A stretch of 64,000 nt of DNA from a virus (lineage: Duplodnaviria > Caudoviricetes). The position numbers and the translations under genes were made by a program. Below are positions 32,361 through 48,376 of this stretch, piece after piece (positions within the stretch are counted from its first letter, which is position 1; each line of letters opens with the position of its first letter). The stretch lies in IMG/VR virus record IMGVR_UViG_3300049926_000039, positions 5,804 through 69,803 of that record; one strand, 5' to 3'. The notes below the pieces were generated by a model that was given only the letters and a program-made list of their open reading frames with translations, was not told where the DNA came from and made no database searches.

Positions 32361-32765
32361 TCACAACAGCACGCTCCCCAGAAACCCGCAGAACAACAGC
32401 AGGGTCAGCGCGGTCAGCGAGCCGAGCACGTACGCCAGAGTCGCCGACTCCCAGGTGTACCGGTCGGGCGGGGGGCGGTCCGGGATCTCGGCGGTCAGCA
32501 CGCGGTCCATCTCGGCGAGCTCCTGCGCCCGCACCCACGTCCTGATCAGCAGCCGGGTGTCCCCCGGATCCATCCTGCGCAGGTCGGCCAGCGGGATGCC
32601 CGACCGGATGGAGAACAGTTCGAGCTCGGCGCCGGGCCGCAGCATCCGCTCGGTGTCCGTCAGCGTGCGAGGGTCGGCGCGGATCAGCCGCACAAGATCC
32701 CGCTCTCGCCACTCGGCGAGGGGCGACCGTCGGGGCGGCCGACTAGATCTGACATGTTCCTGCAC
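32361..32765 (-). CDS. hypothetical protein with C-terminal TM helix
   Basis: RBS GAGGAGG, 134 aa. Confidence 0.55.
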   Translation of the reverse strand: MQEHVRSSRPPRRSPLAEWRERDLVRLIRADPRTLTDTERMLRPGAELELFSIRSGIPLADLRRMDPGDTRLLIRTWVRAQELAEMDRVLTAEIPDRPPPDRYTWESATLAYVLGSLTALTLLLFCGFLGSVLL

Positions 32766-33183
32766 GGGTACGCCTCCTCGGGTTGTGGTGATCGTTGGCG
32801 AGATCTTCACCCGCAAGCGCGCCATCCCGAATGGCCGCACGCTCCGCAGCTCGAGCAGCGGAGCGATCGGGCAGCCAACGGATCGGCACCATCACGCCGG
32901 TGGACTGCCGCATCCACCACTCATCGTCGGGATCGGTGAGGTGCCGCGACCCGCGCACCTCGGGCTCGTTCGAGATGCCGTAGTAGATCGGCCGCAGCGT
33001 CGTCGCCCACAGGTAGCAGTACAACAGGTGGGGCACATCGGCGCGGACCGGACGGCGGACGGGCAGCGCCCGGGGGGGCGGTAGTTGCTGCACCGCATCC
33101 TGCGCACGCCACCTGGCGATCTGCACGATCAGGGCCAGCACCAGCCACGCGGTGAGGGTGAGCAGAACGAGTCCGAGCGTCAT
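32743..33183 (-). CDS. N-terminally membrane-anchored GIY-YIG nuclease
   Basis: TM helix then LLYCY...IYYGIS...RGSRH...AERAAI...LAN. Confidence 0.65.
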   Translation of the reverse strand: MTLGLVLLTLTAWLVLALIVQIARWRAQDAVQQLPPPRALPVRRPVRADVPHLLYCYLWATTLRPIYYGISNEPEVRGSRHLTDPDDEWWMRQSTGVMVPIRWLPDRSAARAAERAAIRDGALAGEDLANDHHNPRRRTRAGTCQI

Positions 33184-33419
33184 CGGGCCCACATCGCAGC
33201 CACCGCGGCTGCCATGCCACCGGCCATGCCCATCAGTCCGGACACGATCAGCAGCACGTCCACCGACAGCGAGTCCGCACCCTGCCGGTGCATCCACGCC
33301 CACATGCACCCGACCAGCACCATGAAGCCGAGGGCGGTCAGGGCTACGGCGGCACCCATCCACCGGACGACCCGGCGCTGCACGACGAACTCCGTCTGAC
33401 CCCGGGTGCTGTGACTCAT
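33180..33419 (-). CDS. small two-TM membrane protein
   Basis: 79 aa, ATGA coupling. Confidence 0.6.
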   Translation of the reverse strand: MSHSTRGQTEFVVQRRVVRWMGAAVALTALGFMVLVGCMWAWMHRQGADSLSVDVLLIVSGLMGMAGGMAAAVAAMWAR

Positions 33420-33805
33420 GACGGCCGCCACTCCTCGCGGTATCCGGGCTTATCGGCGTACGGCAACGCGCGTATCTTGACGGCGGTCAACAGGCCGTAC
33501 GCCTCGCCCGCAGGCGCCTCGCGGTGCAGGTCGTAGTAGGTCCGGGCTTGTTCGTACTCGTCCAATAGCCGTCGGTCGGCGGCCACCTCGGCCAGCACGC
33601 GGGCCGGGTCCCAGCGGGCGATGTGCACGGGATTCACCTTCGACCACGGCCCGCCACTGAAGCCTTCCGAGACGGTGAGGCCCTGGTCGTAGGAGTGCAC
33701 GTCCTCGCCGGACCTGCTCACCGTCCACGGGCCCGGCGTCGCTCCCCGTGCCACCCGCTCGTCCTCATCGAGCTGGGCGCGCAGCCAGGTCACCAGGCCG
33801 TTCAT
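33416..33805 (-). CDS. DUF6221-like protein
   Basis: WLRAQLDEDERVA...HIARWDPARVLAEVAADRRLL...ALPYADKPGYREEWRP. Confidence 0.75.
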   Translation of the reverse strand: MNGLVTWLRAQLDEDERVARGATPGPWTVSRSGEDVHSYDQGLTVSEGFSGGPWSKVNPVHIARWDPARVLAEVAADRRLLDEYEQARTYYDLHREAPAGEAYGLLTAVKIRALPYADKPGYREEWRPS

Positions 33806-34191
33806 CGCGGCATCGCCACATACGCGAGGGCCAGCAGGGCGACGCCGGCGACCAGCACCCCGTGCCACCACATCGGGCGCGGGGGGCGGCCGGTCGCGAG
33901 GGCCATCTGCCGGGCCTGCACCCCGGTCACGGCGTAGGTCGACGCCACATAGGCGAGCAGGGCGAAGAACCCGAGGGATGCCGCCGCGAACGCGATGGTG
34001 CGGTGGTCGACGTGGAACCACATCCACGCGCACCCGATCGCGACCAGGACGAATCCGACAGCCCACGGAATCCAGCCGCCGAACAGAATCAGGTAGGCGT
34101 GATCGTGCCCGACTTTCCGGTTCGCGGCGAGACGGCGGATCTCGCGGTCGTGGGTCCGCCGCTCGGCGGAGCTGACATATCGGCGGGCCAT
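33802..34191 (-). CDS. membrane protein (possible Spd-like spread protein)
   Basis: three TM helices, downstream of tra genes. Confidence 0.55.
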   Translation of the reverse strand: MARRYVSSAERRTHDREIRRLAANRKVGHDHAYLILFGGWIPWAVGFVLVAIGCAWMWFHVDHRTIAFAAASLGFFALLAYVASTYAVTGVQARQMALATGRPPRPMWWHGVLVAGVALLALAYVAMPR

Positions 34192-34959: not shown

Positions 34960-35155
34960 GCCTCTTTCTGCTGACTTTCTGGCTACGGTCTGTGACTTGA
35001 CGGACTTTCCGTGATCACTTAATCTATGACAAACGCTGTCTTTCCGCTGAGTTTCCAACGACTTGAATCCTCTCTTTCCGGGCGGAAAGTCGGCCGATCT
35101 CCTTAGGTCGCGTCCCTCCCTCTGCCCGACTTTCCACTCCCGCGACTTTCCGGGC
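34960..35155. repeat. clt-like locus: 8-bp GACTTTCC repeats directly downstream of traB
   Basis: exact GACTTTCC at 35003, 35128, 35144, inverted at 35084; variants at 34973, 35038, 35049, 35072. Confidence 0.7.
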
Positions 35156-35164
35156 CTGCGGACG

Positions 35165-37345
35165 TCACGCACCGTGCGTGCGCGGGCCCGCGATGTACGT
35201 GAGCAGGTAGTGCCCGCGCACGCCGTCCCGCTCGATCGTGAGCCCCGGAGGCGAGACGAACTTGCCCTCATCGCACAGTCCCGTGAACCGCTTCGAGATC
35301 CACGACTCGGACGGCTGGACGACCATCTCGGCCACCACGTCCGCGTTCGTGAACCGCATGACCTTGCGCTCGGCCATCCTGACCAGCGCGGCGTCGAACT
35401 CGGCCACCGCGTGCTCGGGCGACGACGGGCGGGGCTTCAGTCCCGGGCCGTCCAACTCGATGTTCTGGCCGTCACCGAGCGGCTCGACCGGCTCGCGCGG
35501 GTCGCCGTACTCGGCGCGTTCCTCCGCTGTGGGCGCGGCCGGAGCATCCGGGTCCAAGTCTTCGCCCAGGTCGTCGCCGTCGAGCTCCATCGTTTGCTGC
35601 ATGTCGGTCCCTTCGCTTGCGTTTGCGCTGGTCACGGTCGTGACAGCGGGCTCTGCGTCGTCCTCGCCCTTCGCGCCGAACATGACCGCGGACGGGCGGC
35701 ACAGGTTCCACACGGGGCCGAGCACGCTGATCTCCTCATCGGTGAAGGTCGCCGGCGTGAACGTGGTCCGCGCCTTGAGCACCGCCTCGCGAAGGTCGCC
35801 GTAGTCCTCGCGGGTCTCGTAGGTGCGGCAGTCGATCGGGTACCGGGTCGGGTCCACCCCCGGCGCCTTGTCGAGGTAGTGGGCGCCCGGGACGCTGGCC
35901 GCGAACTGTTCGGCGTTGGCGCCCGCCTCGCGGGTCTCGTCCGAGATGACGAACGCCGAGTCATAGTCCTGCGTGATCCCGAACTGCTTCCACGCGCCGA
36001 CCGCCGCGCGGACGTCGGTGGACAGCGCCGTACCGACCGCGCGGGGCAGGGTGATCGACAGGCGGAAGCCGAGCGAACGGCCCTTGGTGGCCAGCCACTC
36101 GAAGTTCGCGCCCTCCTTCACGATGTCGAACTCGTCCGCGAAGATGTAGATGAACGGCATGCCCGTCGTGTACGCGGCGGCGGCGTTGAAATTGCGGTAT
36201 CCGCTCAGCGCGTCCGCCCGGTATTTGCCAAGCCTGCGCAACGCAGCGAAGAGCGCGAGCGACTGCGCACGCGAAGCCGAGGCGAGCGTGCACATGTCCA
36301 GGCACCATCCTGCGTTCTGCATGATCTTCGCTTGGTCGATGTAGATGGCGACGACATCGGTTCGCGAAAGAACCTCCGCGATCTCGATCGCCGCGTCGCC
36401 CGACTTCCCCGAACCGGTCATGCCCTGTCGACCGAGGAACACGTCGTTCGGGGAGCGAAACTTCGGTGCGACCCGGGAGCGAAGTTCGTCTGGGGTTCGC
36501 GCGAAGGAGAACCACTGCGGCGCCCCGTCGGAGTAGTACGCGGTGCGAATCGGCGCAGCGAAGCTTTCGCCCGGGTGAGACAACCCCGGCCACGGGCGCC
36601 ACGTCTTGTGCGGGTCGGTGTGCACGAGGCGAATCTGCGAGGTCCCGCCGCGTTCGGCGGGCACGATCGAACTTCGCCCGCGAATGATTCCGGGGTTCTC
36701 CTCCAGCGCGGGCAACGCACTTCGCAGTTGCGAGATCGGTACGCCCGTATGGTCGATGGTCGCGGTCACCGCGAACTCGTCGCCGTCGATAGTGTTCGCG
36801 CGGATGCGTGCGCCCTTCGGCCACTTCAGCAGGTCCGCCAGGCCGCCGCCCTCTTCGCCCGAGCTGGTCGCCGCGCGGAACGCGTCGATGCGGTAGAGCA
36901 GCCACGTCCCCGCGAAGAAGATCGAGCACAGCAGGTAGATCACCGCAGCGGACGCGGGGACCGTGAACACGTCCGCGATCCGGTTCCACCAGTGCGGCCC
37001 AGTCCGGTGCCAGCCGAGGATTACGCCGATCGAGACGGCCACCGCGAACGCCTCGATGGTGAGCGCGACGTGCCAGATCACGAACGGGATCCGCTTGGTC
37101 ACCTTGTGGCCGATGCCCAGCGCCACCCCGGGGCCGACCGTGCCGAACAGGAACAGCGACAGCCAGACCATCATCCACTTCAGTTCGGGGCTGAAGAACA
37201 GGAAGAACCGCAGCACGATGACCAGGGCGGGGACGCCGAACAGGGCCGTGAGCAGCACCGATAGGAACGGCTGTGCCCGGTCGTCGGGCTCCCGCTTGCG
37301 GGGGTTCCGCTCGCTGGTGACGTTGACGTTCGATGTCCGGCTCAC
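35165..37345 (-). CDS. traB: TraB-family FtsK/SpoIIIE conjugative DNA translocase
   Basis: N-terminal TM helices, Walker A GMTGSGKS, Walker B IFADE, C-terminal winged helix (SESWISKRFTGLCDEG...GHYLL). Confidence 0.85.
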   Translation of the reverse strand: MSRTSNVNVTSERNPRKREPDDRAQPFLSVLLTALFGVPALVIVLRFFLFFSPELKWMMVWLSLFLFGTVGPGVALGIGHKVTKRIPFVIWHVALTIEAFAVAVSIGVILGWHRTGPHWWNRIADVFTVPASAAVIYLLCSIFFAGTWLLYRIDAFRAATSSGEEGGGLADLLKWPKGARIRANTIDGDEFAVTATIDHTGVPISQLRSALPALEENPGIIRGRSSIVPAERGGTSQIRLVHTDPHKTWRPWPGLSHPGESFAAPIRTAYYSDGAPQWFSFARTPDELRSRVAPKFRSPNDVFLGRQGMTGSGKSGDAAIEIAEVLSRTDVVAIYIDQAKIMQNAGWCLDMCTLASASRAQSLALFAALRRLGKYRADALSGYRNFNAAAAYTTGMPFIYIFADEFDIVKEGANFEWLATKGRSLGFRLSITLPRAVGTALSTDVRAAVGAWKQFGITQDYDSAFVISDETREAGANAEQFAASVPGAHYLDKAPGVDPTRYPIDCRTYETREDYGDLREAVLKARTTFTPATFTDEEISVLGPVWNLCRPSAVMFGAKGEDDAEPAVTTVTSANASEGTDMQQTMELDGDDLGEDLDPDAPAAPTAEERAEYGDPREPVEPLGDGQNIELDGPGLKPRPSSPEHAVAEFDAALVRMAERKVMRFTNADVVAEMVVQPSESWISKRFTGLCDEGKFVSPPGLTIERDGVRGHYLLTYIAGPRTHGA

Positions 37346-38439
37346 GTGCTCACCCCTACCTCTGGCGCAGCGCCGTTGACGTGCTGGTCGGGGGCGGCCG
37401 GCGGGGTGAATTCGCCCAGCGTCAGCCCGTGCCGCCTGCGGTAGTCCTTAACCCATAGCTCAATGGAGCGCTTCGACTTGCCTACCTCCTTGGCGAGGTC
37501 GGCGGCACGCTCACCACCCTCGACCACCCTGCGGGCGAAGACGTCACGGCGGTCCCGATCTCCGTCCTTACTGCCCCGTTCCGGGAAGTTTGGGCGGGAA
37601 TCTCGCGGCGGTGGGGCCGACGCCACGTCTACAGACGGCGGGCGGATCTCCGCCTTAACGCCGCGGGGCATGGGGGCACGCCGTTGCGGCTTCAGCCCGC
37701 CGATTAGCCGACGGTTGTAAATCGGATGCTCAGCGTCGACCAGCACGCGCTCAGCGATCAGGGCATCATCGAGAGTCGGGTACGGCTCGAAAGTCCAGCG
37801 CACGACCAGGGGGAACCACTCTGTTGACTGCGCTTTGTGGGACCGCACGCGCGCGGGAAAGTCGGCAGTCGAACCGATGTACAGCGGCGGGATGGGGTCC
37901 TCCCCGAGCGCGCGGTAGACGCCAGGCTGCCTCGCGCCGAGATCCAGATCGACCGGGACCCCTGCCGCAACGCTCGCCTCCGCCACGACCTCCACCGGGT
38001 CCGGCTGGATCGACCGCCGTCGCCGCTTCAGCTCGAAGAGGCACATCGACGTGACAACAATCAGGCCGTCCACCGACAGCGGGAGGAGGTGCGAATACTC
38101 TTCGCCGTACCGCGAAGCGACGGCCGTCATATGCCAGTACGAAACCCAGGCAGCGACCGCCCCGACGACGCCCGCAGCAACGTAGCGAATCGCCGAGGCG
38201 AGCGAACGGCCGGCGGGCATGTACGACAGGAACTCGACCACAGCGAAGAACGCAAGCGGTGCCCAGGCGGCAATGACCCTGCCCACGAGCGAAGGTTGGG
38301 CGTGCATCGCGTTCGCGAAGACGGACGCCGCGACGCCCGCCGCCAGGCCGAAGCGAACCGCCCAGACGAGGGCGCCACGGGGGGACGCGGCCCCGCCGAT
38401 CTTCGCATCTACAAGCTTCGCTTCGCTCCTGGTCTTCAT
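37342..38439 (-). CDS. DUF2637 (SpdA-like) membrane domain + GIY-YIG + HTH fusion
   Basis: VAASVFANAMHA...AWVSYWHM...LPLSVDGLIVV; GVY...LYIGST...RVRSH...IAE...PIYN; C-terminal AADLAKEVGKSKRSIELW. Confidence 0.75.
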   Translation of the reverse strand: MKTRSEAKLVDAKIGGAASPRGALVWAVRFGLAAGVAASVFANAMHAQPSLVGRVIAAWAPLAFFAVVEFLSYMPAGRSLASAIRYVAAGVVGAVAAWVSYWHMTAVASRYGEEYSHLLPLSVDGLIVVTSMCLFELKRRRRSIQPDPVEVVAEASVAAGVPVDLDLGARQPGVYRALGEDPIPPLYIGSTADFPARVRSHKAQSTEWFPLVVRWTFEPYPTLDDALIAERVLVDAEHPIYNRRLIGGLKPQRRAPMPRGVKAEIRPPSVDVASAPPPRDSRPNFPERGSKDGDRDRRDVFARRVVEGGERAADLAKEVGKSKRSIELWVKDYRRRHGLTLGEFTPPAAPDQHVNGAAPEVGVST

Positions 38440-38508: not shown

Positions 38509-38778
38509 ATGAGCAGCGAAGCGAAGGACGCGGCCCCCGAACCCCGCGAAACGATGACGACCGAGCAGGCAGCGAAGATCCTCGACACGTCGCGTGCGAC
38601 GGTGATCCGTCTCTGCGAAGCGGGGGCCATCGAGCACCGGTGGACTTCGCCCGGGACCGGCCGCGAAGATCGCAACGGGCATCCGCTTCGCGGTCACCGC
38701 CGTCTGTACGCGGATTCGGTGCGCGCGTACGCGGGTCAGCGGGACGCTCCGACGACCCCCGAAGATTCGTCCGCCTGA
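38509..38778 (+). CDS. excisionase/BldC-like HTH regulator, divergent from transfer operon
   Basis: MTTEQAAKILDTSRATVIRLCEAG...GHRRLYADSV. Confidence 0.75.
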   Translation: MSSEAKDAAPEPRETMTTEQAAKILDTSRATVIRLCEAGAIEHRWTSPGTGREDRNGHPLRGHRRLYADSVRAYAGQRDAPTTPEDSSA

Positions 38779-41155: not shown

Positions 41156-41758
41156 GTGATCCGAGTCGCTGAGATCTCTTACGAGTTGACCAAAGAGGTA
41201 CTCGCCGCAGCACACTACATTGGCAGGCCCGGTTCGACTTCCGTCCGACTTGGCCTATGGATCGACAACGCGCTCGCCGGCGTCATCACATACGGCACCA
41301 TCCCGCGCCCTAATGCGCGTGCCATCTGCGGCCCCGAGTACGCGCCTAACGTGCTAGAACTCACCCGGCTCGCGTTGTACGACTGGGCGCCCCGAAACAG
41401 CGAGTCGAGATTCATCGCCGAATCGTTCCGCCACTTGCGCATGGAACGCCCGGACATTTTTATTTTGATCTCGTACGCAGACGGGCGCCACGGCCACGTC
41501 GGCACGATCTACCAGGCGACGAACTGGATCTACACGGGGTCAAGCACGGGTGATGTGATCTACCGCTGCGAAGACGGCCGCACGCTACATCCGCGGACTG
41601 TCGGCTGGACGGACCTTCCTCCAGGAAGGTGGATACCGGCGGGCGACAAGCACCGTTACGTGCAGTTTCTGGGCACGCCGCATCGCAAGCGCGCCTTGAG
41701 ACGTGCCCTCCGCTGGCCGGATCTGCCATATCCGAAACTTGACACCCTTGACACTTAA
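41156..41758 (+). CDS. Mom-family (GNAT-fold) adenine modification enzyme
   Basis: AHY...GVITYG...LELTRL...PRNSESRFI...ISYADGRHGHVGTIYQATNWIYTG. Confidence 0.75.
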   Translation: MIRVAEISYELTKEVLAAAHYIGRPGSTSVRLGLWIDNALAGVITYGTIPRPNARAICGPEYAPNVLELTRLALYDWAPRNSESRFIAESFRHLRMERPDIFILISYADGRHGHVGTIYQATNWIYTGSSTGDVIYRCEDGRTLHPRTVGWTDLPPGRWIPAGDKHRYVQFLGTPHRKRALRRALRWPDLPYPKLDTLDT

Positions 41759-45756: not shown

Positions 45757-46740
45757 ATGACCGAACCGCTGACCAGGGAACAGGCTGAGAAGGCCGACCA
45801 CATCCTCCGCAATCGCACCCCGAACCTGAACAAGGCGCTCGCCGCGTTCCAGGCCGAAATGCCCGCGCTCGAACGGGACCGACACGTTGACGTAGAGACG
45901 AAAGATCCAAGCAAGGCGTATGGGTACAGCTACGCCACCCTCGCCAACGTGACCGCCGTCGCCATGCCGCTGCTCGGCAAGCACGGGCTCAGCTTCACCG
46001 CGTTCCCAGGTGCCGGGTCCGACGGCAAGGGCATGTCGCTGAAGTACTCACTGCTCCACGAGTCTGGGGAAGAGCGGACGGGGGAGTGGCCATTCTCCGC
46101 CGAGGGCGGGATACAGATCCTCGGCGGGCGTCTTACCTACCTACGTCGCTATTGCCTGCTCGCCGTAACCGGGCTCGCCGCGGCCGAAGACGACGACGCG
46201 GCCGCCGCTCAGGCCGAGGACGAGGCCAACGCCGGGACGGTGCAGCGCCGGCAGCGGCCGCCCGTAAAGGCCACGGCCCGCCCCGCTACCGCCACCACCC
46301 GGGCGCCCGCCCTGGGCGCTGCGGAGGGCGAGACCGTACAGCGTCAGCGCCCGGCCAGTCCGCCGCTCCCGGGCGAAGAGGCCGACACTCCCACCGTGCC
46401 GATGCAGCGCAAGCTCGCTATTCAGTTCGGCCAGCTCGAAGTGACCGATCGGGACGAACGGCTGGCCCTGATGACCGACATGATCGGACGACCGATCACC
46501 TCGATCAAGGATCTGACCAAGAGCGAGGCGCACGCCGCGATCGACGCCATCGACAAGGCGCTGAAGACCGACAACCCGCTCACGTCGATGCTGGAGATCT
46601 ACCAGCGCACCTCGGCCGAACCTGCCGCAGCCGAGGGCCGTCCCGCCGGCCAGCGGTCGCGCAACGCCCGCGAGGCGGTCACCAACGGCGGAGACGAGGG
46701 CGCGGAAGAGGCGCCGTGGGAAGGACAGATGCCGGTATGA
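45757..46740 (+). CDS. ERF-family single-strand annealing protein
   Basis: YSYATLANV...LLGKHGLSF...TYLRRYCLLAVTGLAAAEDDDA. Confidence 0.85.
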   Translation: MTEPLTREQAEKADHILRNRTPNLNKALAAFQAEMPALERDRHVDVETKDPSKAYGYSYATLANVTAVAMPLLGKHGLSFTAFPGAGSDGKGMSLKYSLLHESGEERTGEWPFSAEGGIQILGGRLTYLRRYCLLAVTGLAAAEDDDAAAAQAEDEANAGTVQRRQRPPVKATARPATATTRAPALGAAEGETVQRQRPASPPLPGEEADTPTVPMQRKLAIQFGQLEVTDRDERLALMTDMIGRPITSIKDLTKSEAHAAIDAIDKALKTDNPLTSMLEIYQRTSAEPAAAEGRPAGQRSRNAREAVTNGGDEGAEEAPWEGQMPV

Positions 46741-47284: not shown

Positions 47285-47634
47285 CCACCACGCCCGAGGG
47301 CTTCACCGTCGAGCGCTGCCGGACCGAGACGTGCAAGGCGCCGATCATCTGGGCGCGCACCACAAACGCCAAGACCGGAAAGTCCGGGACCATGCCGGTC
47401 GACGCCGAACCGGTCGCCGGCGGCAACGTCCGCCTATACAGCCGTCAGGGCATCGTGTGGGCCGAAGTGGTGCCCAGCCAGGTGACCCCGGCGGACTTGT
47501 TCGTATCCAGCGGCAGCGACGCCTACCCGCCGTTTCCCATGCCGGAGGAGACACTTCCGGCGCCGACCGAACCCCTGCGCACGTCGCACTTTGTTACGTG
47601 CCAGCGAGCGGCCGATTGGCGGAAGCCGAGGTGA
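47281..47634 (+). CDS. hypothetical zinc-binding protein
   Basis: CRTETCKAPIIW...MPVD...SHFVTC. Confidence 0.7.
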   Translation: MTTTPEGFTVERCRTETCKAPIIWARTTNAKTGKSGTMPVDAEPVAGGNVRLYSRQGIVWAEVVPSQVTPADLFVSSGSDAYPPFPMPEETLPAPTEPLRTSHFVTCQRAADWRKPR

Positions 47635-47725
47635 CCAGCGCGGCATGGGAATGGATCTCAGTGGGGGTATCTGGTCTCGCTGGCATCGCCATCGGGATGT
47701 TCATCGCTTGCACGGGCCGACGGCG

Positions 47726-48376
47726 ATGAACGTCATCGGGCTCGACCTCTCGCTGACCGCCCCCGGGCTGTCCGTCCCCGACCGGACCGAGACGCTGTAC
47801 ACCGACGCCAAGCGCGGGGACAAGCGGCTCTGCGACATCCGAGACTGGCTTACCCACTACGCCCACACCCGCGCGCCCGTCCTGGCGATGATCGAGGCCG
47901 TGCCGCCGTACCAGTCAGGGTCGGCGATTCTCGATCTCGTGCACGGCGTAACCCGGGAAGTATTGGCCCGGTACGACATCCCGTTCGCCTACGTCAGCCC
48001 TTCCTCTCTTAAGCAATTCGCCACGGGTGACGGATGGGCCGACAAGACGGCAGTGATGGACGCCGTGGAGGAGATGTCCGGCACGCGGCCGGCGGACGAC
48101 AACGCCGCAGACGCGTGGGTCCTGCGCCGGATGGGCGAGTGCCTGTGGGCTGACCCGTTCTTCCATCGCGGGCATCACCTGCAATCGCTCAGCTCGATCG
48201 CATGGCCGCTGAAGCCCGGCGACCCGAAATGGCCGCAGCCCTACGGAAAGCTCACGCGCAAGCCCGTGACTAAGAAGTGTCGACACGGGGTCGTCTGCCT
48301 ACGCAACGGCTACGAGTGGCTCCACCCGTTCGACGTCGCGCCCTGCGACAAGCCGCCCAAAGGGAAGGCATCGTGA
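47726..48376 (+). CDS. ruvC: RuvC-like Holliday junction resolvase
   Basis: VIGLDLSLTAPG, IEA, PSSLKQFATGDGWADK, DDNAADA. Confidence 0.85.
   Translation: MNVIGLDLSLTAPGLSVPDRTETLYTDAKRGDKRLCDIRDWLTHYAHTRAPVLAMIEAVPPYQSGSAILDLVHGVTREVLARYDIPFAYVSPSSLKQFATGDGWADKTAVMDAVEEMSGTRPADDNAADAWVLRRMGECLWADPFFHRGHHLQSLSSIAWPLKPGDPKWPQPYGKLTRKPVTKKCRHGVVCLRNGYEWLHPFDVAPCDKPPKGKAS

What the first reader, a model, noticed from the sequence alone, without database searches (positions are those of the whole stretch)
37342..38439. DUF2637/Spd membrane domain fused to a GIY-YIG nuclease and an HTH
Seen: a multi-TM DUF2637-like N-terminus, an apparently intact GIY-YIG (GVY, LYIG, R, E, N) and a C-terminal HTH, translationally coupled to traB. 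Established: DUF2637 proteins in actinomycete conjugative elements usually pair the TM region with a DNA-binding tail. I do not recall a nuclease in between. Inference: a membrane-tethered nuclease that could nick or linearise DNA for TraB pumping, resolve concatemers, or act as a kil/exclusion function. With 32743-33183 this gives two membrane-tethered GIY-YIGs in one operon.
Basis: partly seen in the sequence, partly recalled or inferred. Interest (0 to 1): 0.72.

Follow-up and report, generated by a model that had tools for sequence, protein, structure and literature searches.

The report
Membrane-anchored nuclease beside phage TraB pump
An uncultured actinomycete phage encodes, directly ahead of a plasmid-type DNA pump (TraB), a membrane protein with an apparently working DNA-cutting domain between its membrane anchor and its DNA-binding tail; this rare, undescribed arrangement could show how DNA is prepared for that pump.

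Summary
Gene 37342-38439 (-) encodes 365 aa with three parts:
- a four-helix DUF2637 membrane domain (Pfam E 6e-9);
- an 80-aa GIY-YIG nuclease domain. The model has pLDDT about 95, and its best structural matches are the UvrC nuclease domain (TM 0.72). Y175, Y187, G189, R197, H201, E230 and N242 are all present;
- a flexible linker followed by a three-helix HTH.

Its stop codon overlaps the TraB start (GTGA).

The architecture is rare but not unique. I found 10 proteins with it among about 15 billion, all singletons from metagenomes. In six loci TraB follows directly.

Two sister loci have the same membrane domain (74-75% identity) and the same TraB family but no nuclease domain, so the domain is facultative and the gene is mosaic. 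Where present, it is the most conserved part of the protein (dN/dS about 0.13).

A second, single-helix-anchored GIY-YIG gene (32743-33183) is conserved in the same operon in five loci, including one that lacks the fusion.

The element is a complete phage genome. Earlier notes of this scan report TraB modules in other phages, and FtsK-like motors fused to GIY-YIG in other genomes.

Best reading (about 0.4): a cytoplasm-facing, HTH-guided nuclease subunit of the TraB/Spd-like transfer apparatus. Rivals are a selfish homing-type cassette and an exclusion or kil nuclease. Function is untested. I class it as a new variant of a known kind.

The parts
37342..38439 (-). Whole gene, 365 aa: DUF2637 membrane domain, GIY-YIG nuclease, linker, HTH
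   Evidence: Coding GC pattern. Identical public gene call P0004. Domains.
38014..38382 (-). Residues 20-142: four transmembrane helices (DUF2637). Predicted N-in/C-in topology, so the rest of the protein faces the cytoplasm.
   Evidence: Pfam PF10935 E 6.4e-9. AF2 helices 20-47, 49-72, 79-111 and 113-142. 74-75% identical to nuclease-less P0006 and P0007. The topology is inferred from the K/R distribution read in the sequence.
37939..38013 (-). Residues 143-167: basic juxtamembrane stretch (KRRRR) and a short helix with the conserved AAGVPV motif that precedes the nuclease in most fused relatives
   Evidence: Alignments. AF2 helix 152-159.
37705..37938 (-). Residues 168-245: GIY-YIG nuclease domain (Y175, R176, Y187, G189, R197, H201, E230, N242)
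   Evidence: conservation. (pLDDT about 95). (UvrC GIY-YIG domains, TM 0.72). (dN 0.17 against dS 1.35).
37573..37704 (-). Residues 246-289: Pro/Arg-rich disordered linker of about 45 aa between nuclease and HTH
   Evidence: pLDDT 40-50 with no secondary structure. Poorly conserved.
37420..37572 (-). Residues 290-340: three-helix HTH (HTH_23 / transposase-type)
   Evidence: pLDDT 90-97. Pfam HTH_23 E 0.007 for the query. Relatives reach 1.2e-6. Foldseek matches ArdK, KorA and TnpE-type HTH domains.
37345..37419 (-). Residues 341-365: C-terminal tail with the VNG motif shared by DUF2637 proteins
   Evidence: N355 and G356 are invariant in the close set and present in nuclease-less DUF2637 proteins.
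37342..37345 (-). GTGA stop/start overlap with traB
   Evidence: Sequence read. The two genes overlap or abut in L005, L006, L001 and L010.
35165..37345 (-). traB: membrane-anchored FtsK-like dsDNA translocase, 726 aa, with Walker A GMTGSGKS and Walker B-like FADEFD
   Evidence: NCBIfam plasmid_TraB E 5e-60. Motifs read. 45-59% identical TraB genes follow the relatives.
35003..35151 (.). Cluster of GACTTTCC 8-mers just 3' of traB (clt-like)
   Evidence: Four of the seven exact copies in the window lie here. 1.2 copies are expected in the whole window, and 0 of 100 shuffles reach 7.
38509..38778 (+). Divergent 89-aa HTH_17 / excisionase-type gene, probably the regulator of the operon
   Evidence: Pfam HTH_17 E 1e-7. 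TIGR01764 E 6e-6. A small divergent HTH gene is also present in L001, L006 and L010.
32743..33183 (-). Second GIY-YIG gene of the operon, 146 aa, with one N-terminal membrane helix
   Evidence: Subfamily HMM E 1.3e-8. Membrane helix. Orthologues lie downstream of traB in L005, L006, L008 and L011, with Y, Y-x-G, R and N invariant.

Best explanation
The gene encodes an inner-membrane protein of the DUF2637 type. This is the four-helix, DNA-binding membrane protein that sits next to TraB in Micromonosporaceae transfer modules. In this version an active GIY-YIG endonuclease has been inserted into the cytoplasmic linker between the membrane anchor and the HTH tail.

The gene is translated together with TraB, an FtsK-like dsDNA pump, from an operon carried by a complete actinophage genome.

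Proposed mechanism (inferred):
1. The protein assembles at the membrane beside the TraB hexamer.
2. Its HTH binds the element's DNA.
3. The nuclease, held on a flexible tether of about 45 aa as in I-TevI-type enzymes, nicks or cuts nearby.
4. The cut gives the pump a linear or unit-length substrate from circular or concatemeric phage DNA. The DNA can then be moved between hyphal compartments or cells.

The small single-helix GIY-YIG protein of the same operon would supply the same activity in relatives that lack the fusion.

Shown: the domains, the catalytic residues, the fold, the coupling to traB, the conservation and the facultative distribution. Inferred: the topology, the interaction with TraB, the substrate and the purpose of the cut.
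For: Domains and fold.

The catalytic spacing Y-12-Y-10-R-4-H-29-E-12-N follows that of UvrC. The residues Y19, Y29, Y43 and N88 of UvrC are named in the PDB titles.

The nuclease is the best-conserved domain of the fused family: 38-74% identity, against 9-28% for the membrane part. Its dN/dS is about 0.13 against L010.

There is a GTGA overlap with traB. TraB follows directly in six loci: the window, L001, L005, L006, L010 and L011.

A second membrane-anchored GIY-YIG is conserved in the same operon in five loci, including L008, which lacks the fusion. Every locus long enough to judge therefore has at least one.

The pairing of DUF2637 with TraB also occurs in a Micromonospora chersina chromosome.

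SpdB2 is an oligomeric four-helix membrane protein that binds DNA and interacts with TraB. Its homologues in phages were proposed to spread phage DNA (PMC4447253).

Untested leads from this scan: FtsK-like motors fused directly to GIY-YIG domains in other genomes.
Against: No experiment exists for any member of the family.

In model Streptomyces plasmids TraB alone suffices for transfer and no nuclease is known (PMC4447253).

Two sister loci lack the fused domain, so it is not indispensable to the module.

The direct Pfam GIY-YIG score is below threshold.

Homology of DUF2637 to characterised Spd proteins is not shown.

The mosaic, presence/absence pattern fits a mobile cassette equally well.

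No target site of the HTH is known.
Confidence: 0.4

Rival explanations
1. Selfish homing-type cassette. The GIY-YIG domain is a mobile nuclease that has lodged in-frame in the insertion-tolerant linker of the membrane-protein gene. It spreads between co-infecting related phages by cutting nuclease-less alleles, and it adds nothing to DNA transfer.
For: The domain is present or absent at the same position in homologous genes of related elements: the window, L010, L001 and L005 have it, while L008 and L009 do not.

The gene is mosaic. The window's membrane domain is 74-75% identical to nuclease-less P0006 and P0007. Its nuclease, however, nests with P0005, P0125 and P0274 (SH-aLRT 96), whose membrane domains are only 20-26% identical.

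The nuclease-flexible linker-HTH layout is that of I-TevI-type homing enzymes (established knowledge).

L008 carries a different insert, a CxxC...H...H motif, at the same place.
Against: The domain is retained with every catalytic residue across family members that share only 24-43% overall identity. It is also the slowest-evolving part of the protein.

Eight of the ten fused nucleases cluster together, which suggests long vertical retention (weak support).

The HTH is ancestral to the host gene and was not brought by the cassette.

Membrane tethering is an odd handicap for a homing enzyme.

A separate GIY-YIG gene is conserved in the operon.
Confidence: 0.2
2. Exclusion, competition or kil nuclease. 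The membrane-anchored enzyme destroys DNA that is not the element's own at the membrane or septal pore. That DNA could be competing phage or plasmid DNA entering the cell, or host DNA. This would give superinfection exclusion, host takeover or pock-like growth arrest.
For: The enzyme is a membrane-tethered, cytoplasm-facing nuclease in a phage early operon.

The gene occupies the traA position of the pSN22/pJV1 layout, between the divergent regulator and traB. tra and spd genes of Streptomyces plasmids form kil-kor systems (PMC4447253).

There is a weak similarity of the nuclease region to the PADLOC candidate PDC-S14 (E 0.002).
Against: No significant match to any known defence system was found.

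Tight translational coupling to TraB, conserved across six loci, is more easily explained by a shared task.

A sequence-specific-looking HTH on a tether suggests a defined site rather than bulk degradation.

No immunity or modification partner is evident next to it.
Confidence: 0.2
3. Non-catalytic role. The GIY-YIG fold serves only as a DNA-binding or protein-docking module, and the protein acts as a membrane-bound regulator or DNA tether.
For: The direct Pfam score is sub-threshold. HTH proteins at this position could regulate the divergent promoter region. One family member, P0163, has substitutions at two motif positions: Y187 to R and H201 to Y.
Against: All metal-binding and catalytic residues (Y175, R197, E230, N242) are invariant in all 10 fused proteins, and G189, R197, E230 and N242 in 144 relatives. 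H-to-Y at the 201 position is the natural state in UvrC (Y43; PDB titles). Inactivated nuclease folds normally lose these residues.
Confidence: 0.07

Closest known systems
DUF2637 (PF10935) membrane/HTH proteins next to TraB in Micromonosporaceae elements (e.g. P0052 of Micromonospora chersina; P0006 and P0007 from metagenomes)
   Same: Same N-terminal four-helix domain (74-75% identity to P0006 and P0007), same HTH tail and VNG end, and the same position directly upstream of a TraB/FtsK-like gene.
   Different: Those proteins have only a variable Pro-rich linker, or other small inserts, where this protein has a complete GIY-YIG nuclease.
SpdB2 and other Spd proteins of Streptomyces conjugative plasmids (pSVH1, pSN22, pIJ101), with SpdB2 homologues in phages phiC31 and VWB
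   Same: An integral membrane protein with four helices that binds DNA, is encoded in the tra/spd operon with overlapping stop/start codons, and partners TraB. Phage copies were proposed to spread phage DNA (PMC4447253).
   Different: No detectable sequence homology was shown here. No Spd protein is known to carry a nuclease. This gene lies upstream of traB, the traA position in pSN22/pJV1.
UvrC / Cho N-terminal GIY-YIG domain
   Same: Best structural match (1ycz and 1yd6; TM 0.72, rmsd 2.1 A over 80 residues). Same catalytic residue set and spacing. Weak NCBIfam Cho hit at E 7e-4.
   Different: No UvrB-binding, RNase H-like or HhH domains, so this is not a repair protein. It is membrane anchored and lies in a phage transfer operon.
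I-TevI-type GIY-YIG homing endonucleases
   Same: A catalytic GIY-YIG domain joined by a long flexible linker to a C-terminal HTH DNA-binding domain. The YIGS-x6-R-x3-H motif spacing is the same (from memory of I-TevI). The domain shows a presence/absence polymorphism among related phages.
   Different: It is not free-standing or intron-encoded. It is an in-frame domain of a polytopic membrane protein. The HTH belongs to the host gene family and was there before the nuclease.
Streptomyces plasmid-phages (pZL12/phiZL12; pSLE1; pCQ3 and pCQ4 plasmids)
   Same: Elements that combine virion genes with a TraB-type transfer function. pZL12 is cited through PMC4487206. The window's TraB gives its best plasmid hits to pCQ3 and pCQ4, at 33-35% identity.
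   Different: In pCQ3 the gene upstream of traB is a soluble TraA with no membrane helix and no DUF2637 match; it was not scanned for nuclease domains. The present lineage is uncultured and has no relative in 50,697 phage records.

Membership tests
GIY-YIG nuclease superfamily (PF01541) | Pfam model score above the gathering threshold | tested here: not met
   13.9 bits against a cut-off of 22.6, E 0.07, covering only profile positions 15-37. By transitivity, 41 of the 47 relatives scanned match PF01541 at E <= 0.01, best E 2.3e-17.
GIY-YIG nuclease superfamily (PF01541) | Motif residues: Tyr of 'GIY', Tyr-x-Gly of 'YIG', Arg about 10 residues after, His/Tyr at +4, metal-binding Glu, and Asn | tested here: met
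   Y175, Y187, G189, R197, H201, E230 and N242 are present. G189, R197, E230 and N242 are invariant, and Y175, Y187 and H201 at least 90% conserved, in 144 sequences.
GIY-YIG nuclease superfamily (PF01541) | Three-stranded sheet flanked by helices (beta-beta-alpha-beta-alpha) | tested here: met
   AF2 elements: b173-178, b187-191, a194-203, b214-219, a223-237, with pLDDT about 95. The top nine Foldseek hits are UvrC GIY-YIG domains, TM 0.69-0.75 and probability 1.0.
GIY-YIG nuclease superfamily (PF01541) | Mg-dependent endonuclease activity | not testable with these tools
   Needs a biochemical assay.
DUF2637 (PF10935) | Pfam model score above the gathering threshold | tested here: met
   36.3 bits against 22.8, E 6.4e-9, residues 87-144. 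More than 100 full-length DUF2637 relatives match at E 1e-26 to 1e-35 over the N-terminal third.
DUF2637 (PF10935) | Polytopic membrane domain followed by a DNA-binding tail | tested here: met
   Four long helices at 20-142 and an HTH at 291-337. Relatives carry HTH_11, HTH_24 or HTH_23 tails.
Spd (plasmid spread) proteins of Streptomyces plasmids, SpdB2 type | Sequence homology to a characterised Spd protein | tested here: inconclusive
   The pSN22 and pJV1 Spd/TraA proteins give no DUF2637 hit. hhalign against the pSN22 251-aa Spd gives probability 3% and E 0.014, sharing only an LPLxVD-like motif. pSVH1 SpdB2 itself was not available.
Spd (plasmid spread) proteins of Streptomyces plasmids, SpdB2 type | Membrane protein encoded in one operon with traB, with overlapping stop/start codons | tested here: met
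   GTGA overlap. Conserved adjacency in six loci.
Spd (plasmid spread) proteins of Streptomyces plasmids, SpdB2 type | Required for intramycelial spreading or pock formation; interacts with TraB | not testable with these tools
   Needs genetics and interaction assays.
I-TevI-like homing endonucleases | GIY-YIG domain, flexible linker and C-terminal DNA-binding domain | tested here: met
   Nuclease at 168-245, disordered linker at 246-289 and HTH at 290-340.
I-TevI-like homing endonucleases | Free-standing or intron/intein-borne selfish ORF | tested here: not met
   It is an in-frame internal domain of a membrane protein. The flanking membrane and HTH parts are homologous to nuclease-less genes.
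I-TevI-like homing endonucleases | Cleaves the cognate nuclease-less allele | not testable with these tools
   A presence/absence polymorphism exists, but cleavage specificity is unknown.

The most novel reading that the evidence does not exclude
Membrane-anchored GIY-YIG nucleases, either fused to the DUF2637 partner of TraB or encoded as the small single-helix protein in the same operon, are the DNA-processing component of a TraB-type double-stranded DNA transfer machine. They would be the functional counterpart of a relaxase for FtsK-like conjugation. By cutting the element at an HTH-defined site, they would let a circular or concatemeric genome be threaded through the TraB pore, giving a phage a virion-free route through the mycelium.
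Probability: 0.2. Interest if true: 0.85.

Novelty: new variant of a known kind. Interest (0 to 1): 0.6.

Why it matters
TraB-type conjugation moves double-stranded DNA through an FtsK-like hexamer. In the model plasmids TraB alone is sufficient and no DNA-processing enzyme is known. To my knowledge, how a closed circular or concatemeric molecule is fed into the pore is unresolved.

Here a phage-borne TraB operon consistently carries membrane-anchored nucleases. One of them is fused to the DNA-binding membrane partner and co-translated with the pump. This offers a concrete, testable candidate for a processing step, and a natural experiment, because related operons exist with and without the fused domain.

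It also adds a tethered-nuclease architecture (membrane anchor, GIY-YIG, linker, HTH) that I could not find described. Together with untested notes of this scan on FtsK-GIY-YIG fusions in other phages, it hints at a recurrent link between FtsK-like pumps and GIY-YIG nucleases on mobile elements.

If the domain turns out to be a selfish cassette, it would instead be an unusual case of a homing-type nuclease living as an in-frame domain of a membrane protein.

Tried and rejected
- Single-sequence AF2 gave an unusable model, mean pLDDT 42.
- A 150-sequence alignment mixing DUF2637-only and GIY-YIG-only proteins (A4) placed the DUF2637 proteins on the nuclease domain, so I discarded it. A5, which leaves out the DUF2637-only proteins, was used instead.
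- phmmer against PDB sequences gave nothing meaningful.
- tblastn of the protein against 50,697 phage and 72,556 plasmid records gave no match. TraB also has no match in the phage records.
- Pattern scans of IMG/VR and of the GTDB species genomes with the close-family alignment found no relatives. The nine-sequence alignment was too divergent for that tool.
- A second word-index search restricted to the nuclease region added only one protein, P0274.
- Defence-system reading: PADLOC gave only E 0.002-0.006 hits on the nuclease region.
- TraA of pCQ3 as an equivalent protein: it has no membrane helix and no DUF2637 match.
- The 1113-aa intein-containing protein near P0225 in L004 is not detectably TraB.
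- I tried to centre a family-wide genome search on the Micromonospora locus, but the record is not held.
- I fetched PaV-LD to check the scan's FtsK-GIY-YIG notes. I dropped this because the notes concern a relative, not PaV-LD itself.
- Cluster look-ups gave no organism names, because all members are metagenomic singletons.
- The careful tree search did not finish, so only the quick tree is reported.


Full report
**1. The gene**

The longest ORF on the minus strand runs from 38790 to 37342. Only the part from the ATG at 38439 is coding:
- GC by codon position is 0.72/0.52/0.80 for 37342-38439, whereas GC3 is 0.63 upstream.
- The upstream stretch is occupied on the other strand by an 89-aa HTH_17/excisionase-type gene at 38509-38778.
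- A public gene call gives exactly this 365-aa protein, P0004, on a 69.8-kb contig.
- Homologues start at the same point.

**2. The three domains**

(a) Membrane domain. Pfam DUF2637 is significant (36.3 bits, cut-off 22.8). More than 100 Micromonosporaceae-type DUF2637 proteins match the N-terminal third at E 1e-26 to 1e-35. With an alignment, AF2 gives four long helices at residues 20-142. Basic residues cluster at the N-terminus, in the second loop and right after helix 4 (KRRRR). This implies N-in/C-in topology, so the rest of the protein faces the cytoplasm. This is an inference from the sequence.

(b) GIY-YIG domain. The direct Pfam hit is below threshold (E 0.07; NCBIfam Cho E 7e-4), so I tested it independently:
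- An exhaustive phmmer search of 1.84 billion representatives with residues 160-255 gave 513 hits at E <= 1e-3.
- Of the 47 relatives scanned, 41 are PF01541, best E 2e-17.
- In a 144-sequence alignment G189, R197, E230 and N242 are invariant, and Y175, R176, Y187 and H201 are at least 90% conserved.
- The AF2 model has pLDDT about 95 over 170-245, with beta-beta-alpha-beta-alpha order.
- The top nine Foldseek PDB hits are the UvrC GIY-YIG domain (1ycz, 1yd6; TM 0.69-0.75, best rmsd 2.1 A, probability 1.0).
- PHROGs 'endonuclease' families also match at E 3e-7.

(c) Linker and HTH. Residues 246-289 are disordered. Residues 291-337 form a three-helix HTH with pLDDT 90-97. It is HTH_23/transposase-like, and relatives reach E 1e-6.

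**3. Coupling to TraB and the operon**

- The stop TGA overlaps the GTG start of the next gene (GTGA).
- That gene is a 726-aa TraB: NF041214 E 5e-60, with Walker A GMTGSGKS and a Walker B-like FADEFD visible.
- Four of the seven exact GACTTTCC copies in the window lie at 35003-35151, just 3' of traB. The whole window is expected to hold 1.2 copies.
- The window is part of an IMG/VR virus record of 69,803 bp that CheckV rates 100% complete.
- It carries portal, protease, capsid and tape-measure genes, plus Mom, ERF and RuvC-like genes.

**4. How common is the fusion?**

- Among the 150 best nuclease-domain relatives plus P0005, only nine have membrane helices in front of the nuclease. P0274 came from a second search.
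- The fused family is therefore P0004, P0005, P0274, P0125, P0128, P0160, P0163, P0192, P0215 and P0225.
- The nine looked up are singleton clusters (P0274 was not looked up), and all ten come only from metagenomes.
- None is in the phage or plasmid collections, IMG/VR or the GTDB species genomes.
- A literature search for GIY-YIG with TraB and Streptomyces found nothing. DUF2637 is barely mentioned in the library.

**5. Context of the relatives**

- TraB of the same family (32-59% identity) follows directly in L001, L005, L006, L010 and L011. The two genes overlap or abut in four of these, and are 107 nt apart in L011.
- A small divergent HTH gene sits upstream in L001, L006 and L010.
- L006 shares many further genes with the window across the 38.5-48.3 kb region, including ERF, so these are related phages.
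- A nuclease-less DUF2637 gene also sits two genes upstream of an FtsK/TraB-like gene in a Micromonospora chersina chromosome.

**6. The nuclease domain is facultative and the gene is mosaic**

- P0006 (L009) and P0007 (L008) have a membrane domain 74-75% identical to the window's and a TraB 50-59% identical. They have no GIY-YIG. P0007 has a CxxC...H...H motif there instead.
- Conversely, the window's nuclease is 65-74% identical to those of P0005, P0274 and P0125, whose membrane domains are only 20-26% identical. These four nucleases form a supported clade (SH-aLRT 96).
- Eight of the ten fused nucleases group together, with weak support (quick tree only).
- A recombination junction therefore lies between helix 4 and the conserved AAGVPV motif.
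- Where present, the nuclease is the slowest-evolving part of the protein. Against L010, dN is 0.17 and dS 1.35. dN is 0.32 for the HTH, 0.61 for the linker and 1.13 for the membrane part. dS is near saturation, so the ratio is rough.

**7. A second membrane-anchored GIY-YIG**

The 146-aa product of 32743-33183 has one N-terminal membrane helix. It matches an HMM of this nuclease subfamily at E 1.3e-8. Orthologues lie downstream of traB in L005, L006, L008 and L011, with the Tyr, Tyr-x-Gly, Arg and Asn positions invariant. L008, which lacks the fused domain, still has this gene. Every locus long enough to judge thus carries at least one membrane-anchored GIY-YIG in the TraB operon. The Micromonospora chromosomal module has none within the 16.8 kb held.

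**8. Comparison with known systems**

- In pSN22 and pJV1 the order is divergent GntR regulator, traA, traB, spd genes. The gene studied here occupies the traA position.
- Their TraA and Spd proteins do not match DUF2637. A profile comparison with a pSN22 Spd protein is not significant, at probability 3%. The label 'Spd' therefore rests on analogy only.
- The analogy is real, though. SpdB2 is a four-helix oligomeric membrane protein that binds DNA and interacts with TraB. Its phage homologues were proposed to help spread phage DNA. Spd genes are too diverse to be recognised by sequence (PMC4447253).
- The same paper states that TraB alone suffices for transfer in the model plasmids. This argues against a universal need for a nuclease.
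- Plasmid-phages with transfer functions are known: pZL12, cited through PMC4487206. The window's TraB gives its best plasmid hits to pCQ3 and pCQ4. The gene upstream of traB in pCQ3 has no membrane helix and no DUF2637 match.
- No defence-system model matches.

**9. Reading**

What is shown is a cytoplasm-facing, membrane-anchored, HTH-tethered GIY-YIG nuclease. It is co-translated with a TraB pump in a lineage of uncultured actinophages and is under purifying selection, yet it is not present in all relatives.

- Most likely (about 0.4): it works with TraB on the element's own DNA, cutting near an HTH-bound site to give the pump a linear or unit-length substrate. The small GIY-YIG protein would cover the same step where the fusion is absent.
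- Selfish homing-type cassette (about 0.2): this fits the mosaic and the presence/absence pattern.
- Exclusion or kil nuclease (about 0.2): this fits the membrane location and the phage setting.
- Non-catalytic role (about 0.07): unlikely, given the invariant catalytic residues.

**10. Earlier notes of this scan**

These notes report TraB modules in several other complete actinophage genomes. They also report FtsK-like motors fused directly to GIY-YIG domains in cyanophage relatives and one other genome. I did not test them. If they hold, they show a recurrent link between such pumps and this nuclease fold.

**Verdict**

The architecture is rare and I could not find it described. It belongs to a known kind of module, so I class it as a new variant of a known kind, with interest 0.6.

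Noticed in passing
window 32743-33183 (-); L005:9677-10192, L006:13009-13419, L008:5514-5972, L011:9770-10165: A small GIY-YIG protein with a single membrane helix, from the same nuclease subfamily, is conserved downstream of traB in five related loci. One of them lacks the fused nuclease.
   Followed up: yes
L008:379-1290 (protein P0007): The closest nuclease-less relative carries a CxxC-x12-H-x5-H (C2H2 zinc-finger-like) motif at the linker position where the window's protein has the GIY-YIG domain. The linker seems to be a hot spot for domain insertion.
   Followed up: partly
window 38509-38778 (+): An 89-aa HTH_17/excisionase-type gene is transcribed divergently, only 69 nt from the start of the studied gene. 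It is the likely regulator of the tra-like operon, in the position of the GntR TraR of pSN22/pJV1. It also matches PADLOC 'mad1' at E 2e-6.
   Followed up: partly
window 35003-35151: Four of the seven exact GACTTTCC copies in the window cluster just 3' of traB (1.2 copies expected in the whole window), like a clt/TRS array. One further copy lies inside the nuclease-coding region at 37856-37863, encoding the D-F-P of the TADFPAR motif. That one is probably chance.
   Followed up: partly
window 37345-37419 and the C-termini of DUF2637 proteins: A short (V/I)NG motif near the C-terminus is conserved across DUF2637 proteins with and without the nuclease. It is a possible docking motif of unknown function.
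   Followed up: no
L004:5931-9272: Near the fused protein P0225 lies a 1113-aa protein containing a LAGLIDADG-type intein. It is not detectably TraB, and this locus shows no TraB next to the fusion.
   Followed up: partly
window 41156-41758 (+), 45757-46740 (+), 47486-48376 (+): A Mom-family protein (E 2e-40), an ERF single-strand annealing protein and a RuvC-like protein lie in the early region beyond the divergent side of the tra-like operon. ERF and its neighbours are syntenic with L006.
   Followed up: partly
window 33802-34191 (-), 33180-33431 (-), 33416-34066 (-): Between traB and the second nuclease there are small proteins with two or three membrane helices and a DUF6221 protein. These are Spd-like small membrane proteins, and homologues recur after traB in L005, L006 and L008.
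   Followed up: partly
proteins P0126, P0127, P0130: Some soluble relatives of this nuclease subfamily carry two GIY-YIG domains in tandem. About 35 others have an N-terminal extension of about 100 aa without membrane helices, of unknown nature.
   Followed up: no
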